Shown here in pieces: positions 18,210 to 51,142 of a stretch of DNA of 64,000 bases. Within the stretch, counting starts at the first letter, position 1, and each line of letters opens with the position of its first letter. The DNA lies in NCBI RefSeq assembly GCF_054482525.1, contig NZ_CM137006.1, one strand, 5' to 3'. The notes under the pieces were generated by a model. The model was not told the DNA's origin, did no database searches, and saw nothing but the letters and a program-made list of their open reading frames with translations. Both the position numbers and the translations under genes were made by a program.

Positions 18210-18226
18210 GTTACCGTTGAGGTAAT
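18210..18226. promoter_or_regulatory. Dyad site O2 (GTTACC-GTTGA-GGTAAT)
   Basis: Perfect TTACC-N5-GGTAA just upstream of the first leftward gene. Confidence 0.6.
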
Positions 18227-18271
18227 GATTATGCGTATTTGGTTTGGTGTCAATAGATATGAGTTAAAAAA

Positions 18272-18288
18272 ATTACCCACAAGGTAAT
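18272..18288. promoter_or_regulatory. Dyad site O3 (ATTACC-CACAA-GGTAAT)
   Basis: Perfect dyad. A TTGACA hexamer on the minus strand lies between O3 and O2. Confidence 0.6.
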
Positions 18289-18344: not shown

Positions 18345-18929
18345 TTATTGTTTGCTTTTTTCGTTCTGGTTGATGACAAATTCAATGTAACTTTCGATCT
18401 TTGCTTTCTCGGTTTCGGGTAACAATGCGTAGCGCGAGCGGTCATAGTTGATAGTCGCAGGGTCGTGCGGGTGAATCAGTAATTCATAGCCGTGACGCCC
18501 GAATGCGGATGCAACATTCTCCAGGGTGGAAATGGAAACGCTGACCTCATTGTTTAACAGGCGGCTGATTGTCACCTGGGCGACGCCGGATGCGCGGTGA
18601 AGTTTTCCCTGTGTTGAAAGGTCGCGGCTTTCGCTCATCCAGCGTTCCAGGTTGTGAGCCGCCAGCTGACCAATGTCGCTTGGGCCGACAGGCTGAAAAC
18701 CTTCCTGAGAAAGCGAGCGATCGATATCAAGCCAGTTACGGGGTTTATTGGCGGCAGCTTCAATTTTTCGCGCAACCTGGTCGCCGATAACCTTCTTACC
18801 AAGAGCCCAGCGGTTTACCAGATTTGCCTGAGTTCCAAGTTTTTCTGCCATCCGCGTCTGAACACCATTGAATTCACGGTCGATCAAGTCGTTGAGATTT
18901 TGCCTGCGGACGTCCTGGATACTTTTCAT
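18345..18929 (-). CDS. Prophage repressor with two XRE-type HTH domains and no S24 peptidase domain
   Basis: 194 aa. HTH 1 reads VQTRMAEKLGTQANLVNRWALGKK and HTH 2 reads LHRASGVAQVTISRLLNNEVSVSISTLENVASAF. It is divergent from a cro-like gene, and no Ala-Gly or Ser...Lys autocleavage module is seen. Confidence 0.7.
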   Translation of the reverse strand: MKSIQDVRRQNLNDLIDREFNGVQTRMAEKLGTQANLVNRWALGKKVIGDQVARKIEAAANKPRNWLDIDRSLSQEGFQPVGPSDIGQLAAHNLERWMSESRDLSTQGKLHRASGVAQVTISRLLNNEVSVSISTLENVASAFGRHGYELLIHPHDPATINYDRSRYALLPETEKAKIESYIEFVINQNEKSKQ

Positions 18930-18983: not shown

Positions 18984-19000
18984 ATTACCCAACAGGTAAA
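18984..19000. promoter_or_regulatory. Dyad site O4 (ATTACC-CAACA-GGTAAA)
   Basis: Perfect dyad in the repressor/cro divergent gap. Confidence 0.6.
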
Positions 19001-19031
19001 TGCACCCCATAGGTAACTATCCTTGATTTTT

Positions 19032-19048
19032 GTTACCTTATGGGTGAA
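19032..19048. promoter_or_regulatory. Dyad site O5 (GTTACC-TTATG-GGTGAA), one mismatch
   Basis: It lies in the spacer of a readable rightward promoter, TTGTTA-17-TATTAT. A lone GGTAAC half-site sits at 19011-19017. Confidence 0.45.
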
Positions 19049-21269: not shown

Positions 21270-21286
21270 GATTACCTGTTGGGTAA
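21270..21286. promoter_or_regulatory. Dyad site O7 (ATTACC-TGTTG-GGTAAT)
   Basis: Perfect dyad. TTACCT (21271-21276), 17 nt, then TCTAAT (21294-21299) reads as a promoter. Confidence 0.6.
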
Positions 21287-21331
21287 TAAAATGTTCTAAT
21301 CTCTATTGATTTCATGTCTTATGTGGTTTTT

Positions 21332-21348
21332 AATTACCTAAGGGGTAA
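21332..21348. promoter_or_regulatory. Dyad site O8 (ATTACC-TAAGG-GGTAAA)
   Basis: Perfect dyad overlapping the RBS of the gene starting at 21352. Confidence 0.55.
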
Positions 21349-25981: not shown

Positions 25982-25998
25982 ATTACCACAACGGTAAC
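25982..25998. promoter_or_regulatory. Dyad site O9 (ATTACC-ACAAC-GGTAAC)
   Basis: Perfect dyad between the terminator and terS. A degenerate repeat, ATTACCACGGTGGTTAT, follows at 26000-26016. Confidence 0.55.
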
Positions 25999-26014
25999 TA
26001 TTACCACGGTGGTT

Positions 26015-26611
26015 ATGATGCCTGCTGAACCTAAAACCTATAAACGCAAATCAACGCAATTTAAGCCACTAACAGCAATGCAGGAGGCTTATTGCCAGTC
26101 ATACATCAAAACGCCTGAAAACCAGACTCAGGCAGCGATTAACGCAGGATTCTCCCCAAATACAGCGGCAGTTAAAGCCAGTGTCATGATGCGCGATGAA
26201 CGCATTCAGAAACGGATTGCCGAGTTGATGGAGGAGCGCAACAAACGAATGCGCGTCAGTGCTGATTACGTTCTCATGCGCCTGGTGGAGATCGACCAGA
26301 TGGACGTTATCGACATCCTCAACGACGATGGGAGCCTTAAACCAATCCGTGAGTGGCCGAAAATCTGGCGCACTACGCTTAGTGGCTTTGATCTGTCATC
26401 GACCATCATGAACATGAACGAGGATTCGATAGAGACAATCCTCAAAAAAATTAAATGGCCTGACAAGGTGAAGAACCTTGAGCTGATTGGTAAGCATGTT
26501 GATGTCAATGCGTTCAAAGAACGTCTGGATGTTAATGTGAATGTGACAATTGCTGATCGCATAGCGGCAGCCAGGAAGAGACTGAAAGAACGTCAGGATG
26601 GCAATCAGTGA
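26015..26611 (+). CDS. terS: Terminase small subunit
   Basis: The start is taken at MMPAEPK. The ORF-track TTG start at 25937 would run through the terminator and operator. The region LTAMQEAYCQSYIKTPENQTQAAINAGFSPNTAAVKASVMMRDERIQKRI is Terminase_2-like. Confidence 0.7.
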   Translation: MMPAEPKTYKRKSTQFKPLTAMQEAYCQSYIKTPENQTQAAINAGFSPNTAAVKASVMMRDERIQKRIAELMEERNKRMRVSADYVLMRLVEIDQMDVIDILNDDGSLKPIREWPKIWRTTLSGFDLSSTIMNMNEDSIETILKKIKWPDKVKNLELIGKHVDVNAFKERLDVNVNVTIADRIAAARKRLKERQDGNQ

Positions 26612-28794: not shown

Positions 28795-28871
28795 TGGCGC
28801 GGCATGCAGGATTCGAACCTGCGACCAACCGCTTAGAAGGCGGTTGCTCTGTCCAACTGAGCTAATGCCAC
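28795..28871 (-). tRNA. tRNA-Arg (anticodon UCU), 77 nt with encoded CCA
   Basis: Hand-folded cloverleaf: acceptor GTGGCAT/ATGCCGC, D arm GCTC-AGTTGGACA-GAGC, anticodon arm ACCGC-CTTCTAA-GCGGT, T arm GCAGG-TTCGAAT-CCTGC, discriminator G, then CCA. Confidence 0.85.
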
Positions 28872-34076: not shown

Positions 34077-34400
34077 ATGGAACTCGTAAACCTCAAAACC
34101 GGCACTGACAGCTACCAGGATGAGAGCGGAGAAACCAGAACTCGTGATGAATACCCGTGGGGGCTGTGCATCACTCTTAATAACGACACATTGAATAAGC
34201 TGAAGGCGCAACCTAAGGGCGTCGGAACGGAAGTGATGATAACTGCAAAGGCTGTTATTCGAGGCCTGTCTGCCAGAGAAACTGACGATGGCGTTAATCG
34301 CAGCGCCGATCTGCAGATCACTGATATGGCGATCGCTCCTGTTTCCGGGGATGTAGAAAAATCAGCGGCTGAAACTCTGTACGGTAACGGAGGTGAGTGA
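34077..34400 (+). CDS. Hypothetical structural-region protein
   Basis: AGGAG lies 5 nt before the ATG at 34077 (MELVNLKTG). Confidence 0.45.
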   Translation: MELVNLKTGTDSYQDESGETRTRDEYPWGLCITLNNDTLNKLKAQPKGVGTEVMITAKAVIRGLSARETDDGVNRSADLQITDMAIAPVSGDVEKSAAETLYGNGGE

Positions 34401-35005
34401 TGGCCTCTGTAGTAGAGATCTGTAATCGTGCGCTGTCCAATATTGGCAACAGCCGCAGCATTAACAGCCTGACGGAAGCCAGCAAGGAAGCGGGGGAATG
34501 TTCGCTGCACTTTGAGGCCTGCCGTGATGCTGTGCTTTCTGATTTTGACTGGAACTTTGCTACCAAACGCGTGGCGCTTGCAGATACGAGCAATCCACCG
34601 CCTGACTGGGAATATGCGTACCAGTACCCGTCAGATTGTCTGCGCATTACTGAAATTATGCTTCCTGGTGTACGCAATCCAACAGCAGCAATGCGCGTTC
34701 AGTACGAAGTTGGTGCAGACACCAACGGAACAGGAAAGTTGATCTACACAGACCAGCCTCAGGCATGGCTCAAGTATGTCTCTCGCGTTACAGATGTGAA
34801 CATGTTTGATGCCATTTTTATGGAGGCGTTGGCCTGGCGTCTTGCGGCAGCTATTAACATGGCGCTGACTGGGAATGCAGACCTCGGTACGTTTGCCCTC
34901 AATATGTACAATCGCGTGATTCTTAGTGCTGGCTCGCATAGCCAGAATGAATCACAGGAACCACAGCCACCGGTTGACGAGTTTACCATTGCGAGGTTGT
35001 CCTGA
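34397..35005 (+). CDS. Head-tail adaptor / tail tubular protein A-like
   Basis: 202 aa followed by an 823-aa protein, which mirrors the T7 gp11/gp12 sizes and order. Confidence 0.4.
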   Translation: MMASVVEICNRALSNIGNSRSINSLTEASKEAGECSLHFEACRDAVLSDFDWNFATKRVALADTSNPPPDWEYAYQYPSDCLRITEIMLPGVRNPTAAMRVQYEVGADTNGTGKLIYTDQPQAWLKYVSRVTDVNMFDAIFMEALAWRLAAAINMALTGNADLGTFALNMYNRVILSAGSHSQNESQEPQPPVDEFTIARLS

Positions 35006-46902: not shown

Positions 46903-47598
46903 TCAGAAGAACCCTGCCTTGTCGTTGATGTACTCCGCGTGCGTCTGGATATCACGCAGGCATTTGCTCACACCGACGATGTAGCAGAACATGGTGGTCA
47001 GCTCCGCCGCCGCGCCCGATACGTCGTGCCCGTCGTCCTGTAACTGGTTCAGCAGATTCATCAGCAGTGAGTTCTCCGTCAGGCCGAGAACACCAGACGG
47101 CGAATGAATCAGGCTGCGGTAGCCGGGCTTCAGTGGGGCACTGTAGGTTTTGTTCTCTATCTTCATCGCCTGCATCACTGCTGATGCTGTGGCGTTGGCT
47201 ACCTGGTCGGCAACCATCTTTATGCGCTCTTCCTGCGGGAGCGAGTTTTTAATGTAACTTCCGGTGCGGCGGATCTGAGGAAGAACCTCACCTGTAACCC
47301 ATTTACGAAAGCGGTATGGGATAGTGCCTGGTGTCACTGCGTCGCGGCAGCGGAGGATCAGTGTGTAGAGGCCTGACTCGGAGATGATGATCGATTCTTG
47401 CTCACCGCCAGGGGTGTCGGTTGAAGCGACGCCCTTCTCATCATCATCAAGTTTTCGAACAGCATCTCGATGGTTTGCTATGCCTATAGCCCGACAAACA
47501 TCTGAAGCGATAAACCATGGCTCACCATTAATGACGATTACTCGTATATCGGCTTGGGATTCGAAAGAAAAAATGGACGTGCTTTTTGTAGCTGTCAT
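46903..47598 (-). CDS. Bro-N domain antirepressor-like protein
   Basis: 231 aa. The N-terminus FESQADIRVIVINGEPWFIASDVCRAIGIANHRDAVRKLDDDEKGV is a typical Bro-N domain. The C-terminal 70 aa are paralogous to the ORF at 47914-48186. Confidence 0.7.
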   Translation of the reverse strand: MTATKSTSIFSFESQADIRVIVINGEPWFIASDVCRAIGIANHRDAVRKLDDDEKGVASTDTPGGEQESIIISESGLYTLILRCRDAVTPGTIPYRFRKWVTGEVLPQIRRTGSYIKNSLPQEERIKMVADQVANATASAVMQAMKIENKTYSAPLKPGYRSLIHSPSGVLGLTENSLLMNLLNQLQDDGHDVSGAAAELTTMFCYIVGVSKCLRDIQTHAEYINDKAGFF

Positions 47599-47754
47599 AG
47601 TGGTTACCTTTTAGTCTGGTTAATCACCACTACCGACGCCAATCGGTTGGTGGTGAGCTGTGCAGGGTTGGCGTAACCGGCTAAAAGGACCCGGCGCACC
47701 TTTCGGTGCCCCCACACAGCCCACCATAATACGAATGTGGCCGTGCTATACGCA

Positions 47755-47776
47755 TAAAAAAACCGCTTGCGCGGTG
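47755..47776 (-). terminator. Intrinsic terminator inside the Ant leader
   Basis: On the minus strand, ACCGC-gcaa-GCGGT is followed by TTTTTTTT. Confidence 0.65.
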
Positions 47777-47875
47777 AATGCGCCTTTTAGTAATCCGGGA
47801 CGCCAATCCCGGCACTGGATTTTGCCAGTGCCCGATTACTATGGCACAAGAGGAGTGCGATGTAAATTTACCGCA
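47755..47875 (-). ncRNA. Predicted short leader transcript (about 120 nt) from the operator-overlapped promoter to the intrinsic terminator
   Basis: The promoter at 47882-47910 and the terminator at 47755-47776 are on the same strand. In between lie the hairpins GGCACTGG/CCAGTGCC (47811-47832) and CCGGGA-cgccaa-TCCCGG (47795-47812). Confidence 0.3.
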
Positions 47876-47883
47876 AAGGTAAA
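47867..47883. promoter_or_regulatory. Dyad site O12 (TTTACC-GCAAA-GGTAAA)
   Basis: Perfect dyad covering the predicted start site of the promoter at 47882-47910. Confidence 0.6.
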
Positions 47884-47910
47884 TATAAGCACTTCATTTG
47901 GTAATTGCAA
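47882..47910 (-). promoter_or_regulatory. Sigma70 promoter TTGCAA-17-TATATT (Ant leader promoter)
   Basis: On the minus strand, the -35 is TTGCAA (47905-47910), the spacer is 17 nt, and the -10 is TATATT (47882-47887). Confidence 0.55.
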
Positions 47911-47913
47911 ACC

Positions 47914-48186
47914 TTATCTGGTTTGTTTTCGTAATTGTTCGGCACAATAGTCGAGATGTGTTTGCAGATCCTGCATAGACATCTGTGAGCTGGTGACGTA
48001 GTTAATCAGTGCAGTCAGTTCGGCAAGTGGGCCATCGACATTAAATCCATCCTTATCTAGATCCCGGAGTAATTTCATCAAGTGCGATCCCTCCACCAGT
48101 GACTTGACGCCTCCCGGCGTGTGAATCCTTTCGGTAAATCCGTCTTCCAGTGGATAGTGATACTGCTGCATCTTAATCTTCTCCAT
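47914..48186 (-). CDS. Small LexA-controlled protein homologous to the Ant C-terminal domain (candidate SOS antirepressor)
   Basis: A 90-aa ORF. The likely real start is the ATG at 48171 (85 aa), 9 nt after GGAG. IHTPGGVKSLVEGSHLMKLLRDLDKDGFNVDGPLAELTALINYV...MQDLQTHLDY aligns with Ant IHSPSGVLGLTENSLLMNLLNQLQDDGHDVSGAAAELTTMFCYI...LRDIQTHAEY. Confidence 0.6.
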   Translation of the reverse strand: MEKIKMQQYHYPLEDGFTERIHTPGGVKSLVEGSHLMKLLRDLDKDGFNVDGPLAELTALINYVTSSQMSMQDLQTHLDYCAEQLRKQTR

Positions 48187-48193
48187 GCAATAA

Positions 48194-48209
48194 CTGTATA
48201 TTTATACAG
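48194..48209. promoter_or_regulatory. LexA (SOS) box CTGTATATTTATACAG
   Basis: Perfect CTGT-N8-ACAG with an all-A/T spacer inside TAACTGTATATTTATACAGTAT. On the minus strand it contains a TATAAA -10 candidate. Confidence 0.8.
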
Positions 48210-48247
48210 TATCAAATAATTTGTTTGCTATCCAGCACGTTTTGCAA

Positions 48248-48264
48248 ATTACCTAAAAGGTAAT
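48248..48264. promoter_or_regulatory. Dyad site O13 (ATTACC-TAAAA-GGTAAT)
   Basis: Perfect dyad overlapping the rightward promoter TTACCT (48249-48254), 17 nt, TATATT (48272-48277) for the tailspike gene. Confidence 0.6.
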
Positions 48265-48367
48265 ATCTATTTATATTCACAGTATTTCTATCCATATGTG
48301 GTTTTTCAGGTAATAGAATAACCAGATATGCGGCGCAACGGGTGCTGCGACTATCTGGAGATTTAAC

Positions 48368-51142
48368 ATGACGGTCTCAACCGAAGTTGACCACAACGAA
48401 TACACAGGTAACGGCGTTACGACATCATTTCCGTATACCTTCCGCATTTTCAAAAAAACAGACCTGGTTGTTCAGGTGTCTGACCTGAACGGTAACGTAA
48501 CAGAATTGGTTCTGGATACCGGTTATACGGTAACTGGGGCGGGCACTTATAGTGGCGGTTCTGTTGTTCTTCCGTCGCCGCTTGCTGCTGGCTGGAAAAT
48601 CACGATAGAGCGTGTGCTTGATGTGGTGCAGGAGACTGATCTTCGCAATCAGGGAAAATTTTTCCCCGAAGTTCATGAGGATGCATTTGACTACCTGACG
48701 ATGCTGATCCAGCGATGTTTTGGGTGGTTCAGACGTGCATTGATGAAACCATCTTTGCTTGCAAAATATTACGATGCAAAGCAAAACAGAATTTCTAACC
48801 TTGCAGATCCATCACTTGAGCAGGATGCTGTAAATAATCGCTCAATGCGTAATTATGTCGATGCTGCAATCGCCGGGGTTGTTGGTGGTTTTGGTTGGTT
48901 TATTCAGTATGGTTTTGGGGCAGTATATCGAACGTTCCAGGATAAGATGCGGGATATCGTCAATGTTCGCGATTTTGGTGCAAAAGGGGATGGCATTACT
49001 GACGATACAGACGCAATAACAAATGCCATCATTTACTGCGCATCTAACGGAAAACGCCTGAAGTGGGATTCTGGTGTGTATTTGATTAGCCGCATAAAAT
49101 GCGGCGGGGATAATTATAACTATGACTGGGTAGCTGATGGCAAGGTTGTCTTAAAGTCAACCGCAAAAGAGCCTCTTGGTCCAAACTGGATTGATGATTA
49201 TTTCATAAGACTCGAAGGTGGAGATGCCACGCCAATTGACTATAATTCAACAATAAATCCTGGTGACACATCAATATCAATTAACTCAGCATATTCTGTT
49301 GATGCAGGCGATATAATTATGATTCATGGTAATCGCTTAATTCAGACAGATAATAGAGGACAGGCTTGTGAAGGTGAAATGCATGTTGTTACTGCTTTTG
49401 ATAATGCAACAAAAAAAGCGGAGATATCAGGTGCATTTTATTTTTTCTACTCTGCGAGCAATGATTACTCAACGACCGTAACAGCATCTGTATCCGGAGG
49501 TGAATTCTCATTTGGTAATGATGCAACATTAACAAAACAATACAATCAGGTAAAAGTAACAGGTGTCACCGGAGCTAACGCCGGAATATCAAGATACATA
49601 ACTCATTGGGATTACGACACTAAAACAGCAAAATTTGAATATGCTCAGGGACCATTCCCGTTTAAACCATCTGTTGGAGACGTGTTTAAAATCACAAGAA
49701 AGGCAAATATATATAAAAGAAAACCATGCTACGGCAGAATTGTCGGTGATTTCAATTTTGAAAGACCTGTCACGCAGAACGCATCTCCTGGTGATTTGGG
49801 GTTCCGTGGTCTTGTGATAGATGGCGCTGTTGATATGCATATAGAAGGAATAAAACTAATCGGCTTTTCAGAAACTGGAATTTTTCTTGAGTCATGCTAC
49901 AGAACGAAAATAATAGAGCCATATATTGAATACTCAAACCGTGCATATGATTTAACAAACGGCACTGGTTATGGTGTTGAAATATACAATAGCAGCTATT
50001 GCACAGTCGTGGATATGATAGCATTTGCTTGCAGGAGGGGGCTTGATGTAAGCGGGACTCAAATGGTATCACTGTATAATAACATTATAAATCCAACGAT
50101 GATGGGTGGTGGAACTGCATATGATGGAGTTAAATTTTTCCCTGATGGCGATACAAGAAATTCATGTTGCGGTGGACACGGCCCATCATACGAAACAACT
50201 TTTACAGGCGGCAATTCAGTCAATTTGTATTATGCTGGTGTAATACGCGGATTAAATGAAGTGTATGATGGAATGAACGCCAGGGGATTTAGCGGACCGG
50301 CTCCTTTTTTTGTAAGATATAGTGGTGGTGGGTTCACGATTCAGAACTGTAATTATATTGATGGTTTTACTGAGATGTCTTTGCCATACAACTTGAGGTA
50401 CAAACCTGTGAATGCAACTCAACGTAATCACAGACCTTTTGTTTTTATTGAAACAACTCTGGCACAGACAGACAGAAACTCTTACTATAAAGAACTTCCT
50501 GTTGTTATTAAGAATAATACCGCAAGGACTGTTCTCAAGGGCTTTTTACGTTTTGAGGTTAATGATGGCCTCACCCCTCTAATCCAAAATATTTATTTTG
50601 GTGGTAATTTATGCATGGCGAACCCAGAAACATCAGACTCTGTATCAGGGCAAACAGAGGCAGTAATGGTTTATTCATCAGTTCCTGGTGCAATAATTGT
50701 TCGAAATTTCCATGATCTTGGCGGTAACAGAATTGTTCCTGTTGGAGCAGGATACAGATACTGCGGTATGTTCAACACGCCAGATGGAATAGCAGGAACA
50801 ATAGTTCAACCAGACGGAAAATATCTAATAACACTTGAAGCCAACAAATCTACAAGTATCCTTGTTGGTGGATATGTCCCATGTGTTCGCCTTGATATGC
50901 ACGACATACTTGATATTCATGGGGTAATTGCAGTTGGTGTTCTTATTCATCGTGGTGAGGCAATTGATTTTTCTCCTTTAAAAGAAATTAATAAGCAAAA
51001 TGTTGTATTGAAAACCGGAGTTCTTTCAGATAATGATGGTGATGAAAATAACTTAAATATTTCGTTTGACTTTGCAACCATATATTTAAGCAACAAGATG
51101 CCAAATAAGATTCAACTATCTATTGAAGTATCAGGAGTGTAA
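48368..51142 (+). CDS. Tailspike: conserved N-terminal particle-binding domain plus pectate-lyase-like beta-helix receptor-binding/depolymerase body
   Basis: 924 aa. The N-terminus MTVSTEVDHNEYTGNGVTTSFPYTFRIF...ETDLRNQGKFFPEVHEDAFDYLTMLIQ is one I recall from epsilon15/phiV10-type tailspikes. It is followed by VNVRDFGAKGDGITDDTDAITNAI. Confidence 0.8.
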   Translation: MTVSTEVDHNEYTGNGVTTSFPYTFRIFKKTDLVVQVSDLNGNVTELVLDTGYTVTGAGTYSGGSVVLPSPLAAGWKITIERVLDVVQETDLRNQGKFFPEVHEDAFDYLTMLIQRCFGWFRRALMKPSLLAKYYDAKQNRISNLADPSLEQDAVNNRSMRNYVDAAIAGVVGGFGWFIQYGFGAVYRTFQDKMRDIVNVRDFGAKGDGITDDTDAITNAIIYCASNGKRLKWDSGVYLISRIKCGGDNYNYDWVADGKVVLKSTAKEPLGPNWIDDYFIRLEGGDATPIDYNSTINPGDTSISINSAYSVDAGDIIMIHGNRLIQTDNRGQACEGEMHVVTAFDNATKKAEISGAFYFFYSASNDYSTTVTASVSGGEFSFGNDATLTKQYNQVKVTGVTGANAGISRYITHWDYDTKTAKFEYAQGPFPFKPSVGDVFKITRKANIYKRKPCYGRIVGDFNFERPVTQNASPGDLGFRGLVIDGAVDMHIEGIKLIGFSETGIFLESCYRTKIIEPYIEYSNRAYDLTNGTGYGVEIYNSSYCTVVDMIAFACRRGLDVSGTQMVSLYNNIINPTMMGGGTAYDGVKFFPDGDTRNSCCGGHGPSYETTFTGGNSVNLYYAGVIRGLNEVYDGMNARGFSGPAPFFVRYSGGGFTIQNCNYIDGFTEMSLPYNLRYKPVNATQRNHRPFVFIETTLAQTDRNSYYKELPVVIKNNTARTVLKGFLRFEVNDGLTPLIQNIYFGGNLCMANPETSDSVSGQTEAVMVYSSVPGAIIVRNFHDLGGNRIVPVGAGYRYCGMFNTPDGIAGTIVQPDGKYLITLEANKSTSILVGGYVPCVRLDMHDILDIHGVIAVGVLIHRGEAIDFSPLKEINKQNVVLKTGVLSDNDGDENNLNISFDFATIYLSNKMPNKIQLSIEVSGV

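What the first reader, a model, noticed from the sequence alone, without database searches (positions are those of the whole stretch)
47914..48264. Perfect LexA box on the promoter of a small ORF, in a prophage whose repressor has no autocleavage domain
CTGTATATTTATACAG (48194-48209) is a textbook CTGT-N8-ACAG SOS box. On the minus strand it contains a TATAAA -10 candidate. It lies 7 nt from the first ATG (48186) and 22 nt from the better-supported ATG (48171, which has GGAG 9 nt upstream) of an 85-90-aa ORF. The prophage repressor (18345-18929) is two HTH domains with no S24 peptidase part, so RecA-stimulated self-cleavage is unlikely. A LexA-repressed small antirepressor would supply the missing link to the SOS response, as described for Gifsy-type and 186-type phages. 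The same gap also carries dyad O13, so the gene may be under dual LexA and phage-repressor control.
Basis: partly seen in the sequence, partly recalled or inferred. Interest (0 to 1): 0.75.

Follow-up and report, generated by a model that had tools for sequence, protein, structure and literature searches.

The report
Known LexA-controlled phage antirepressor (SPC32H-type Ant)

Summary
CTGTATATTTATACAG lies at 48194-48209, 22 nt from the ATG at 48171 of an 85-aa minus-strand ORF. It is the only strong LexA site in the 64 kb window. The interpretation also holds, but the system is already known. The ORF is 87 % identical to Ant of Salmonella phage SPC32H (PDB 5D50 chain E, E 1e-46). The prophage repressor (18345-18929, minus strand) is a full-length homologue of SPC32H Rep (PDB 5D50 chain A, E 3.5e-42; 43 % identity) and has no S24 peptidase domain. 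The prophage (about 13.0-53.7 kb) is a phiV10/epsilon15-like Uetakevirus, and its Rep is 99.5 % identical to phiV10 Rep. The box sits 21-24 nt upstream of ant in 89 of 92 related loci from E. coli, Salmonella, Enterobacter, Klebsiella, Citrobacter and Erwinia. The same locus occurs in 530 of 5,426 complete E. coli genomes. Ant is not homologous to 186 Tum; the resemblance to 186 and Gifsy is functional only. The nearby dyad TTACC-N5-GGTAA is a true Rep operator, but it lies upstream of the likely -35, so control of ant by Rep is unproven. In passing: a second, isrK/C4-RNA-linked antirepressor gene lies just downstream, and its C-terminal domain is an Ant paralogue.

The parts
48192..48211 (-). 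LexA (SOS) box. The 16-mer core is 48194-48209. The 20-mer on the ant strand is TACTGTATAAATATACAGTT.
   Evidence: Sequence. Heterology index 1.9, unique in the window. Arms are invariant and the spacer varies across 9 uetakeviruses. Present 21-24 nt from the ant ATG in 89 of 92 loci.
48206..48234 (-). Inferred ant promoter: -35 TGGATA (48234-48229), 17-nt spacer, -10 TACTGT (48211-48206). The -10 is the first 6 nt of the LexA 20-mer.
Evidence: Inference only. CTGGA-A and TAC-TGT fall in invariant columns of alignment A1. The annotated p95 promoter of phage 186 uses the same TACTGT inside its LexA site as its -10. The consensus sigma-70 scan found no promoter here at its threshold.
48181..48184 (-). 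Shine-Dalgarno GGAG, 9 nt upstream of the ATG at 48171.
   Evidence: Invariant in all 9 aligned phages.
47914..48171 (-). ant: 85-aa antirepressor, orthologue of SPC32H Ant.
   Evidence: 87 % identity to SPC32H_020 'ant'. PDB 5D50_E at E 1.2e-46. phrog_450 at E 8e-48. No Pfam family.
48249..48263 (.).
   Evidence: 10 perfect and 7 one-mismatch TTACC-N5-GGTAA sites in the window against 1.3 expected. The same dyad is conserved upstream of ant in 89 of 92 loci. The epsilon15 record annotates the aligned site as 'repressor, lysogeny' protein_bind. SPC32H has 10 perfect sites, including two in the rep-cro gap.
18345..18929 (-). rep: 194-aa prophage repressor, the target of Ant. Two domains, no S24 peptidase.
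   Evidence: PDB 5D50_A at E 3.5e-42, and 5D4Z_A (C-terminal domain) at E 3.6e-20. 43 % identity over the full length to SPC32H Rep. 99.5 % identity to phiV10 Rep. Pfam gives HTH hits only.
18985..19047 (.). Rep operators in the rep/cro-like intergenic region (18985-18999 perfect; 19033-19047 one mismatch). This is the lytic/lysogenic switch that Ant would derepress.
   Evidence: The position matches the paired sites at 34390-34421 of SPC32H between rep and SPC32H_042.
47646..47910 (-). Neighbouring RNA-control module. Promoter-like TTGCAA-17-TATATT (47910-47882) abuts Rep operator 47868-47882. Then a1/b1 C4 targets (47844-47792), isrK-like RNA (47831-47756, with intrinsic terminator 47775-47762), and C4 antisense RNA (47731-47646).
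   Evidence: Rfam: isrK 77.9 bits (gathering score 50), C4 79.2 bits (gathering score 45), c4-a1b1 45.1 bits (gathering score 46.7). Promoter and terminator scan. Operator.
46903..47598 (-). Second antirepressor-like gene: Bro-N domain fused to an Ant-like C-terminal domain (231 aa).
   Evidence: Pfam Bro-N at E 2e-21. phrog_130 'anti-repressor Ant' at E 2e-62, and phrog_450 over residues 148-229. Residues 150-223 are 42 % identical to Ant, E 2e-15.

Best explanation
This is the SOS-sensing arm of the lysis-lysogeny switch of a phiV10/epsilon15-like (Uetakevirus) prophage. It is the same system characterised in Salmonella phage SPC32H. In the lysogen, host LexA binds the box at 48192-48211. 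The box overlaps the -10 region of the ant promoter, so ant stays off. Meanwhile Rep (18345-18929) holds the lytic promoters shut at TTACC-N5-GGTAA operators. Rep has no S24 self-cleavage domain and cannot sense RecA* directly. After DNA damage LexA cleaves itself and ant (47914-48171, 85 aa) is transcribed. Ant binds Rep and takes apart the DNA-binding Rep tetramer, which derepresses the lytic genes. What is shown here: the sequence features, orthology of both proteins to the crystallised SPC32H pair, synteny, and conservation of the box. What is taken from the literature on the orthologue: LexA control, and Ant-Rep binding with disassembly of Rep. What is inferred: that these hold for this E. 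coli prophage, and the exact promoter hexamers.
For: The box is present and is the only strong LexA site in 64 kb. Ant is 87 % identical to SPC32H 'ant' and to PDB 5D50_E. Rep matches PDB 5D50_A and 5D4Z_A over its full length and has no S24 domain. Synteny is the same: ant runs divergent from the tailspike gene and far from the immunity region, and the prophage is colinear with SPC32H over about 13.0-53.7 kb. The box arms are invariant while the spacer and flanks vary in 9 phages from 4 host genera. 86 of 92 loci have a perfect box, 3 have ATGT-N8-ACAG, and the box is always 21-24 nt from the ATG. Ant and Rep homologues occur in essentially the same roughly 35 phage records. On the literature side, PMC7380047 cites Kim and Ryu 2013 for an antirepressor made after LexA self-cleavage that inhibits the repressor by protein-protein interaction. 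PMC9638917 describes an Ant tetramer binding two Rep dimers and breaking the Rep tetramer. PMC9986798 says the Rep C-terminal domain mediates both tetramerisation and Ant binding.
Against: Nothing here measures LexA binding, SOS dependence or Ant-Rep binding for this prophage. The two primary SPC32H papers were not held, so the LexA control of SPC32H ant rests on secondary citations and my own memory of the paper. This Rep is only 43 % identical to SPC32H Rep while Ant is 87 % identical, so conservation of the interface is assumed and not shown. The consensus sigma-70 scan found no promoter overlapping the box at its threshold.
Confidence: 0.9

Rival explanations
1. The LexA box mainly controls the divergent tailspike gene (48368-51142, plus strand), or both genes, and not ant specifically.
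For: The box lies in a 196-nt gap shared by two divergent genes. No consensus promoter was found for either gene.
Against: The box keeps a fixed distance of 21-24 nt from the ant ATG in 89 loci, but it is about 158 nt from the tailspike ATG. Between the box and the tailspike gene lie a Rep operator and other conserved blocks. A structural late gene has no obvious reason to be SOS-gated on its own. The orthologous gene is reported as the LexA-regulated one.
Confidence: 0.04
2. The module is a conserved relic in this prophage. Ant is made on SOS but no longer inactivates the diverged phiV10-type Rep, and induction depends on the second, Bro-N-type antirepressor or on something else.
For: Rep is only 43 % identical to SPC32H Rep. 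A second antirepressor-like gene with an Ant-like domain lies next door.
Against: Ant, the box, the SD and Rep are all intact and co-conserved in every phiV10-like phage. Isolated, viable temperate phages such as phiV10 carry the same Rep at 99.5 % identity. The Klebsiella relatives keep the pair with Rep at 45 % and Ant at 62 % identity, so the pair persists at these levels of divergence.
Confidence: 0.05
3. The CTGT-N8-ACAG match is a chance palindrome in an A+T-rich intergenic region and has no LexA function.
For: The bare 8-base pattern occurs 3 times in the window and is not significant by itself.
Against: The full 20-mer scores among the best SOS boxes, and nothing else in the window comes close. 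The arms are conserved across genera while the spacer varies, which is the signature of a protein-binding dyad.
Confidence: 0.01

Closest known systems
Rep/Ant/LexA antirepression switch of Salmonella phage SPC32H (Kim and Ryu 2013, J Virol 87:11775; Kim et al. 2016, PNAS 113:E2480; PDB 5D50, 5D4Z)
   Same: Ant is orthologous (87 % identity) and Rep is homologous (43 % identity, same two-domain layout, no S24 domain). A LexA box sits at the same aligned position upstream of ant. The TTACC-N5-GGTAA operators are the same. ant lies divergent from the tailspike gene, and the genome order is the same.
   Different: The host is E. coli and the immunity type is phiV10 (Rep 99.5 % identical to phiV10 Rep). 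The box spacer differs (TATAAATA against TATGTTTA). An extra isrK/C4 plus Bro-N antirepressor module of about 1 kb lies downstream of ant; SPC32H and epsilon15 lack it.
Tum of coliphage 186 (LexA-repressed p95 promoter; antirepressor of 186 CI)
   Same: The logic is the same: a non-cleavable repressor, and an antirepressor gene outside the immunity region with a LexA 20-mer beginning TACTGT over the -10 (PMC3121763).
   Different: There is no detectable sequence homology (BLASTP E 0.059). Tum is 146 aa with a DinI-like C-terminal half, and Ant has no DinI hit. The phage family (P2-like myovirus) and the repressor family are both different.
GfoA/GftA/GfhA antirepressors of Gifsy prophages (Lemire et al. 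2011, PMC3121763)
   Same: These are small antirepressors under direct LexA control, encoded away from the immunity region. They bind uncleaved repressors and release them from DNA.
   Different: In Gifsy phages the antirepressor is the second gene of a LexA-controlled operon that starts with a dinI homologue. Here ant follows the box directly and no dinI homologue is adjacent. The repressors (GfoR, DicA/RacR type) belong to another family. Sequence relatedness to GfoA was not tested here.
P1 immI (c4 RNA-icd-ant) and Gifsy-1 isrK-orf45-anrP
   Same: This comparison applies to the neighbouring module and not to the finding itself: an isrK-like RNA, a C4 antisense RNA and its a1/b1 targets, followed by a larger antirepressor-like gene (PMC4825925).
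   Different: That module carries no LexA box. Its promoter-like site abuts a Rep operator. Its protein carries an Ant-like C-terminal domain.

Membership tests
SPC32H-type Ant/Rep/LexA switch (Uetakevirus) | Small antirepressor homologous to SPC32H Ant (PDB 5D50 chain E) | tested here: met
   87 % identity over 83 aa. phmmer E 1.2e-46 covering residues 2-84 of 85.
SPC32H-type Ant/Rep/LexA switch (Uetakevirus) | Repressor homologous to SPC32H Rep, two domains, no autocleavage (S24) domain | tested here: met
   Full-length match to 5D50_A at E 3.5e-42 and to the C-terminal domain 5D4Z_A at E 3.6e-20. 43 % identity. Pfam finds HTH families only.
SPC32H-type Ant/Rep/LexA switch (Uetakevirus) | LexA box immediately upstream of ant | tested here: met
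   The 20-mer scores a heterology index of 1.9. It aligns column for column with the SPC32H box TACTGTATGTTTATACAGTG. 89 of 92 loci carry it.
SPC32H-type Ant/Rep/LexA switch (Uetakevirus) | Genomic context: ant divergent from the tailspike gene, remote from rep, in an epsilon15-like podovirus genome | tested here: met
SPC32H-type Ant/Rep/LexA switch (Uetakevirus) | LexA binds the box, ant is SOS-induced, and Ant binds Rep and releases it from DNA | not testable with these tools
   This needs EMSA, reporter and pull-down experiments. For the orthologue it is known only from the literature.
186 Tum / DinI-fusion antirepressors | Sequence homology to Tum, with a DinI-like C-terminal half | tested here: not met
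   BLASTP against 186 Tum gives 16.5 bits, E 0.059. No DinI or other Pfam family at E <= 0.01 except a spurious sub-threshold DUF724 hit.
Gifsy GfoA/GftA antirepressors | Antirepressor is the second gene of a LexA-controlled operon that begins with a dinI homologue (PMC3121763) | tested here: not met
   ant follows the box directly, 22 nt downstream, and no dinI-like ORF lies between or adjacent. Direct sequence comparison with GfoA was not done.
Large Bro-N/ANT-domain antirepressors (P22 Ant, P1 Ant type) | Bro-N or ANT domain | tested here: not met
   The 85-aa Ant has no Bro-N or ANT hit. It corresponds only to the C-terminal domain of such proteins: phrog_1760 residues 175-225, and 42 % identity to residues 150-223 of the neighbouring Bro-N protein.
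Lambda CI-type autocleaving repressors (tested on the window's Rep) | C-terminal Peptidase_S24 domain | tested here: not met
   No S24 hit. The C-terminal half matches the SPC32H Rep C-terminal domain instead.

The most novel reading that the evidence does not exclude
The most novel reading my evidence does not exclude concerns phiV10-type E. coli prophages, which differ from SPC32H and epsilon15. They carry two antirepressors built on the same Rep-binding fold, each under a different input. The 85-aa Ant is under LexA (SOS). Directly downstream, a Bro-N::Ant-like fusion sits behind a promoter-like site that abuts a Rep operator, followed by an isrK/C4 antisense-RNA module of the P1 immI / Gifsy-1 anrP type. 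No terminator was detected between the ant stop codon (47914) and the isrK terminator (47775-47762). SOS-driven ant transcripts could therefore read into the RNA module and couple the two circuits.
Probability: 0.25. Interest if true: 0.4.

Novelty: already known. Interest (0 to 1): 0.12.

Why it matters
Biologically this adds little. The mechanism, the protein family and the structure of the Rep-Ant complex are already published for an 87 %-identical orthologue, and the locus is common (about 10 % of complete E. coli genomes). The practical value lies in annotation. RefSeq and most phage records call this gene 'hypothetical protein', so SOS-inducibility of phiV10-like prophages is easy to miss. 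These include prophages of O157 and O103 strains and phages used as reporter or typing phages. The result also shows that reasoning from sequence alone can recover a real regulatory circuit, here a non-cleavable repressor plus a LexA box upstream of a small ORF.

Tried and rejected
I tried to read the two primary SPC32H papers (PMC3807360, PMC4983836) and the epsilon15 genome paper (PMC2698709). None is held, so the mechanism is cited through secondary papers.

The consensus sigma-70 scan found no promoter in the ant-tailspike gap at its threshold. The promoter I propose (TGGATA-17-TACTGT) therefore rests on conservation and on analogy with 186 p95.

The genome-contig scan returned only 3 loci (Citrobacter x2, Candidatus Erwinia dacicola). 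The 80 loci kept from the viral-contig scan are nearly all 98-99 % identical to the query. The informative diversity therefore comes mainly from the 9 GenBank phages.

Pfam gives no family for Ant, and its PHROG family (phrog_450) is labelled 'unknown function'. Profile libraries alone would not have identified it. The tblastn search of phage records and the PDB sequence search did.

I rejected membership of the Tum family, chance occurrence of the box, and the upstream ATG at 48186 as the start codon.

Treat it as a ranking and not as published HI values.

I did not run structure prediction or the large protein searches, because a solved structure at 87 % identity made them unnecessary.

Full report
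**1. The observation**

The sequence is as described. CTGTATATTTATACAG lies at 48194-48209. On the minus strand it is followed, after 7 nt, by ATGGAGAAGATTAAGATG. This places an ATG at 48186, GGAG at 48184-48181, and a second ATG at 48171. An ORF then runs to the stop codon ending at 47914, giving 90 or 85 aa.

The bare pattern CTGT-N8-ACAG is not rare enough to mean anything alone. It occurs 3 times against 0.79 expected, and 6 of 100 shuffles reach 3. Scored as a 20-mer, the site stands out. The site scores 1.9, better than the recA and lexA boxes on the same matrix. The next-best site in the 64 kb scores 10.9, and the other two pattern matches score above 13.

**2. What the ORF and the prophage are**

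A megablast of 46800-48500 hits phiV10, TL-2011b, the O157 typing phages 9 and 10 and other Uetakevirus genomes at 94-98 % identity. It hits Enterobacter phage Tyrion and Salmonella epsilon15-like phages at about 77 %.

A tblastn search with the ORF finds 35 phage records. These include Salmonella phage SPC32H, where the matching gene (SPC32H_020) is annotated 'ant: anti-repressor protein' at 86.7 % identity.

The ORF also matches PDB 5D50 chain E, 'Anti-repressor protein', at E 1.2e-46 over residues 2-84.

Pfam has no family for the ORF. PHROGs places it in phrog_450, labelled 'unknown function'. Most GenBank and RefSeq records call it hypothetical.

**3. The repressor**

The ORF at 18345-18929 is on the minus strand and encodes 194 aa. 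It has an HTH_3 hit at residues 106-147, a weak YdaS-type HTH hit at 21-61, and no S24 peptidase hit.

It matches PDB 5D50 chain A, 'Repressor', over its full length at E 3.5e-42. Residues 89-190 match the separately crystallised C-terminal domain 5D4Z at E 3.6e-20. It is 43 % identical to SPC32H Rep and 99.5 % identical to phiV10 Rep.

Rep and Ant homologues occur in essentially the same set of phage records. By tblastx the prophage is colinear with SPC32H from integrase (about 13.0 kb) to the lysis genes (about 53.7 kb), permuted at attP.

**4. Conservation of the regulatory DNA**

I aligned the ant-tailspike gap of nine uetakeviruses from E. coli, Salmonella, Enterobacter and Klebsiella. 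The box arms, TAC-TGT and ATACAGT, are invariant while the 8-nt spacer and the flanks vary. The Klebsiella phages read ATGT in place of CTGT. GGAG and the second ATG are invariant. The first ATG is absent from the Klebsiella phages, so 48171 is the start codon. This agrees with the annotated and crystallised 86-aa SPC32H protein.

Across the 92 loci fetched from GenBank phages, IMG/VR and GTDB genomes, 86 have a perfect box and 3 have ATGT-N8-ACAG. Of the remaining 3, two are cut by contig ends (L052, L064) and one (L015) has a rearrangement breakpoint inside the box. The box is always 21-24 nt from the ATG. The locus is present in 530 of 5,426 complete E. coli genomes.

**5. The promoter**

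The consensus sigma-70 scan reports nothing in the gap at its threshold.

The annotated SOS promoter p95 of phage 186 uses TACTGT, the first six bases of its LexA 20-mer, as its -10. The same TACTGT is present here at 48211-48206. An invariant CTGGA-A block gives TGGATA exactly 17 nt upstream, at 48234-48229. I take this as the most likely ant promoter, by inference only.

It lies in the variable spacer and has no conserved -35. Either way LexA would cover the -10.

**6. The dyad 'O13'**

TTACCTAAAAGGTAA at 48249-48263 belongs to a TTACC-N5-GGTAA family. The window holds 10 perfect and 7 one-mismatch copies against 1.3 expected. They cluster around rep and the rep/cro-like gap.

SPC32H also has 10 perfect copies, two of them between rep and the first rightward gene. 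The epsilon15 record annotates the aligned site as a repressor-binding site. So this is a real Rep operator, and it is conserved upstream of ant in 89 of 92 loci.

The operator ends 14 nt upstream of the proposed -35 and faces the tailspike gene as much as it faces ant. Rep control of ant is therefore possible but not shown.

**7. Mechanism**

The primary SPC32H papers (Kim and Ryu 2013; Kim et al. 2016) are not held. Papers that cite them give the following account.

- Rep binds DNA as a tetramer, and the Ant tetramer binds two Rep dimers and breaks the tetramer (PMC9638917).
- The Rep C-terminal domain mediates both tetramerisation and Ant binding (PMC9986798).

Both proteins are orthologous, the box is at the same aligned position and the synteny is the same. 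I therefore assign this mechanism to the window with a confidence of 0.9. The steps measured only in SPC32H (LexA binding, Ant-Rep binding) are inferred here.

**8.

The logic is that of 186 Tum and the Gifsy antirepressors GfoA and GftA (PMC3121763), but membership fails.

- There is no homology to Tum (E 0.059) and no DinI-like part.
- There is no dinI-first operon as in the Gifsy phages.

The correct family is SPC32H Ant. All the sequence-level defining features of that family were tested and met.

**9. Seen in passing**

Between the ant stop codon and the next gene on the minus strand, Rfam finds three elements:
- an isrK-like RNA (47831-47756, 77.9 bits);
- a C4 antisense RNA (47731-47646, 79.2 bits);
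- just under threshold, the a1/b1 C4 targets (47844-47792).

A promoter-like TTGCAA-17-TATATT (47910-47882) abuts another Rep operator (47868-47882). The isrK match ends in an intrinsic terminator at 47775-47762.

The gene that follows (46903-47598) encodes a Bro-N domain fused to a C-terminal domain that is 42 % identical to Ant. This resembles P1 immI and the Gifsy-1 isrK-orf45-anrP locus (PMC4825925). SPC32H and epsilon15 lack it, while phiV10 and Tyrion have it. It suggests a second antirepressor, controlled by RNA and Rep, that shares the Rep-binding fold with Ant. This is untested.

**10. Verdict**

Interest is low (0.12). The residual value is in annotation and in the side observation about the second module.

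Noticed in passing
window 47646-47910 (minus strand): An isrK-like sRNA (47831-47756), a C4 antisense RNA (47731-47646) and near-threshold a1/b1 C4 targets (47844-47792) lie between ant and the next gene. They are preceded by a promoter-like site (47910-47882) that abuts a Rep operator (47868-47882). The layout resembles P1 immI and Gifsy-1 isrK-anrP.
   Followed up: partly
window 46903-47598 (minus strand): A 231-aa protein has an N-terminal Bro-N domain and a C-terminal domain 42 % identical to the LexA-controlled Ant (residues 150-223). It may be a second antirepressor that uses the same Rep-binding fold. It is present in phiV10 and Tyrion and absent from SPC32H and epsilon15.
   Followed up: partly
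window 47882-47914: No terminator was detected between the ant stop codon and the isrK terminator at 47775-47762. SOS-driven ant transcripts may therefore read into the isrK/C4 module. In epsilon15 a terminator is annotated directly after the ant homologue gp19.
   Followed up: no
window 48290-48345: Conserved blocks lie between the Rep operator and the tailspike start. On the ant strand they read CTATTACC...AACC.(C/T)ATATG, invariant in 9 phages. The epsilon15 record annotates an IHF site just beside the operator. This may be a late or tailspike promoter or an activator site.
   Followed up: no
window 18211-18287, 21272-21348, 25983-26015, 29194, 46816: Further perfect TTACC-N5-GGTAA Rep-operator dyads are scattered through the prophage, several of them in pairs about 50-60 bp apart. 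This is far more than the rep-cro switch needs and may reflect DNA looping or wider repression.
   Followed up: no
window 28795-28871 (minus strand): A phage-borne tRNA-Arg (anticodon tct) lies just after the terminase genes, at the same relative place as the tRNA-Arg annotated in SPC32H.
   Followed up: no
window ant versus rep; Ant is much more conserved than its target. Between the E. coli and Salmonella phages Ant is 87 % identical and Rep 43 %. Against the Klebsiella phages the figures are 62 % and 45 %. This raises the possibility of cross-induction between heteroimmune uetakeviruses, as reported for Gifsy prophages.
   Followed up: no
L052 (IMG/VR contig end) and L015: L052 ends in what looks to me like a Nextera adaptor sequence (AGATGTGTATAAGAGACAG, recognised from memory) fused into the LexA box, which would be an assembly artefact. 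L015 has a rearrangement breakpoint inside the box that leaves only the right half-site.
   Followed up: no
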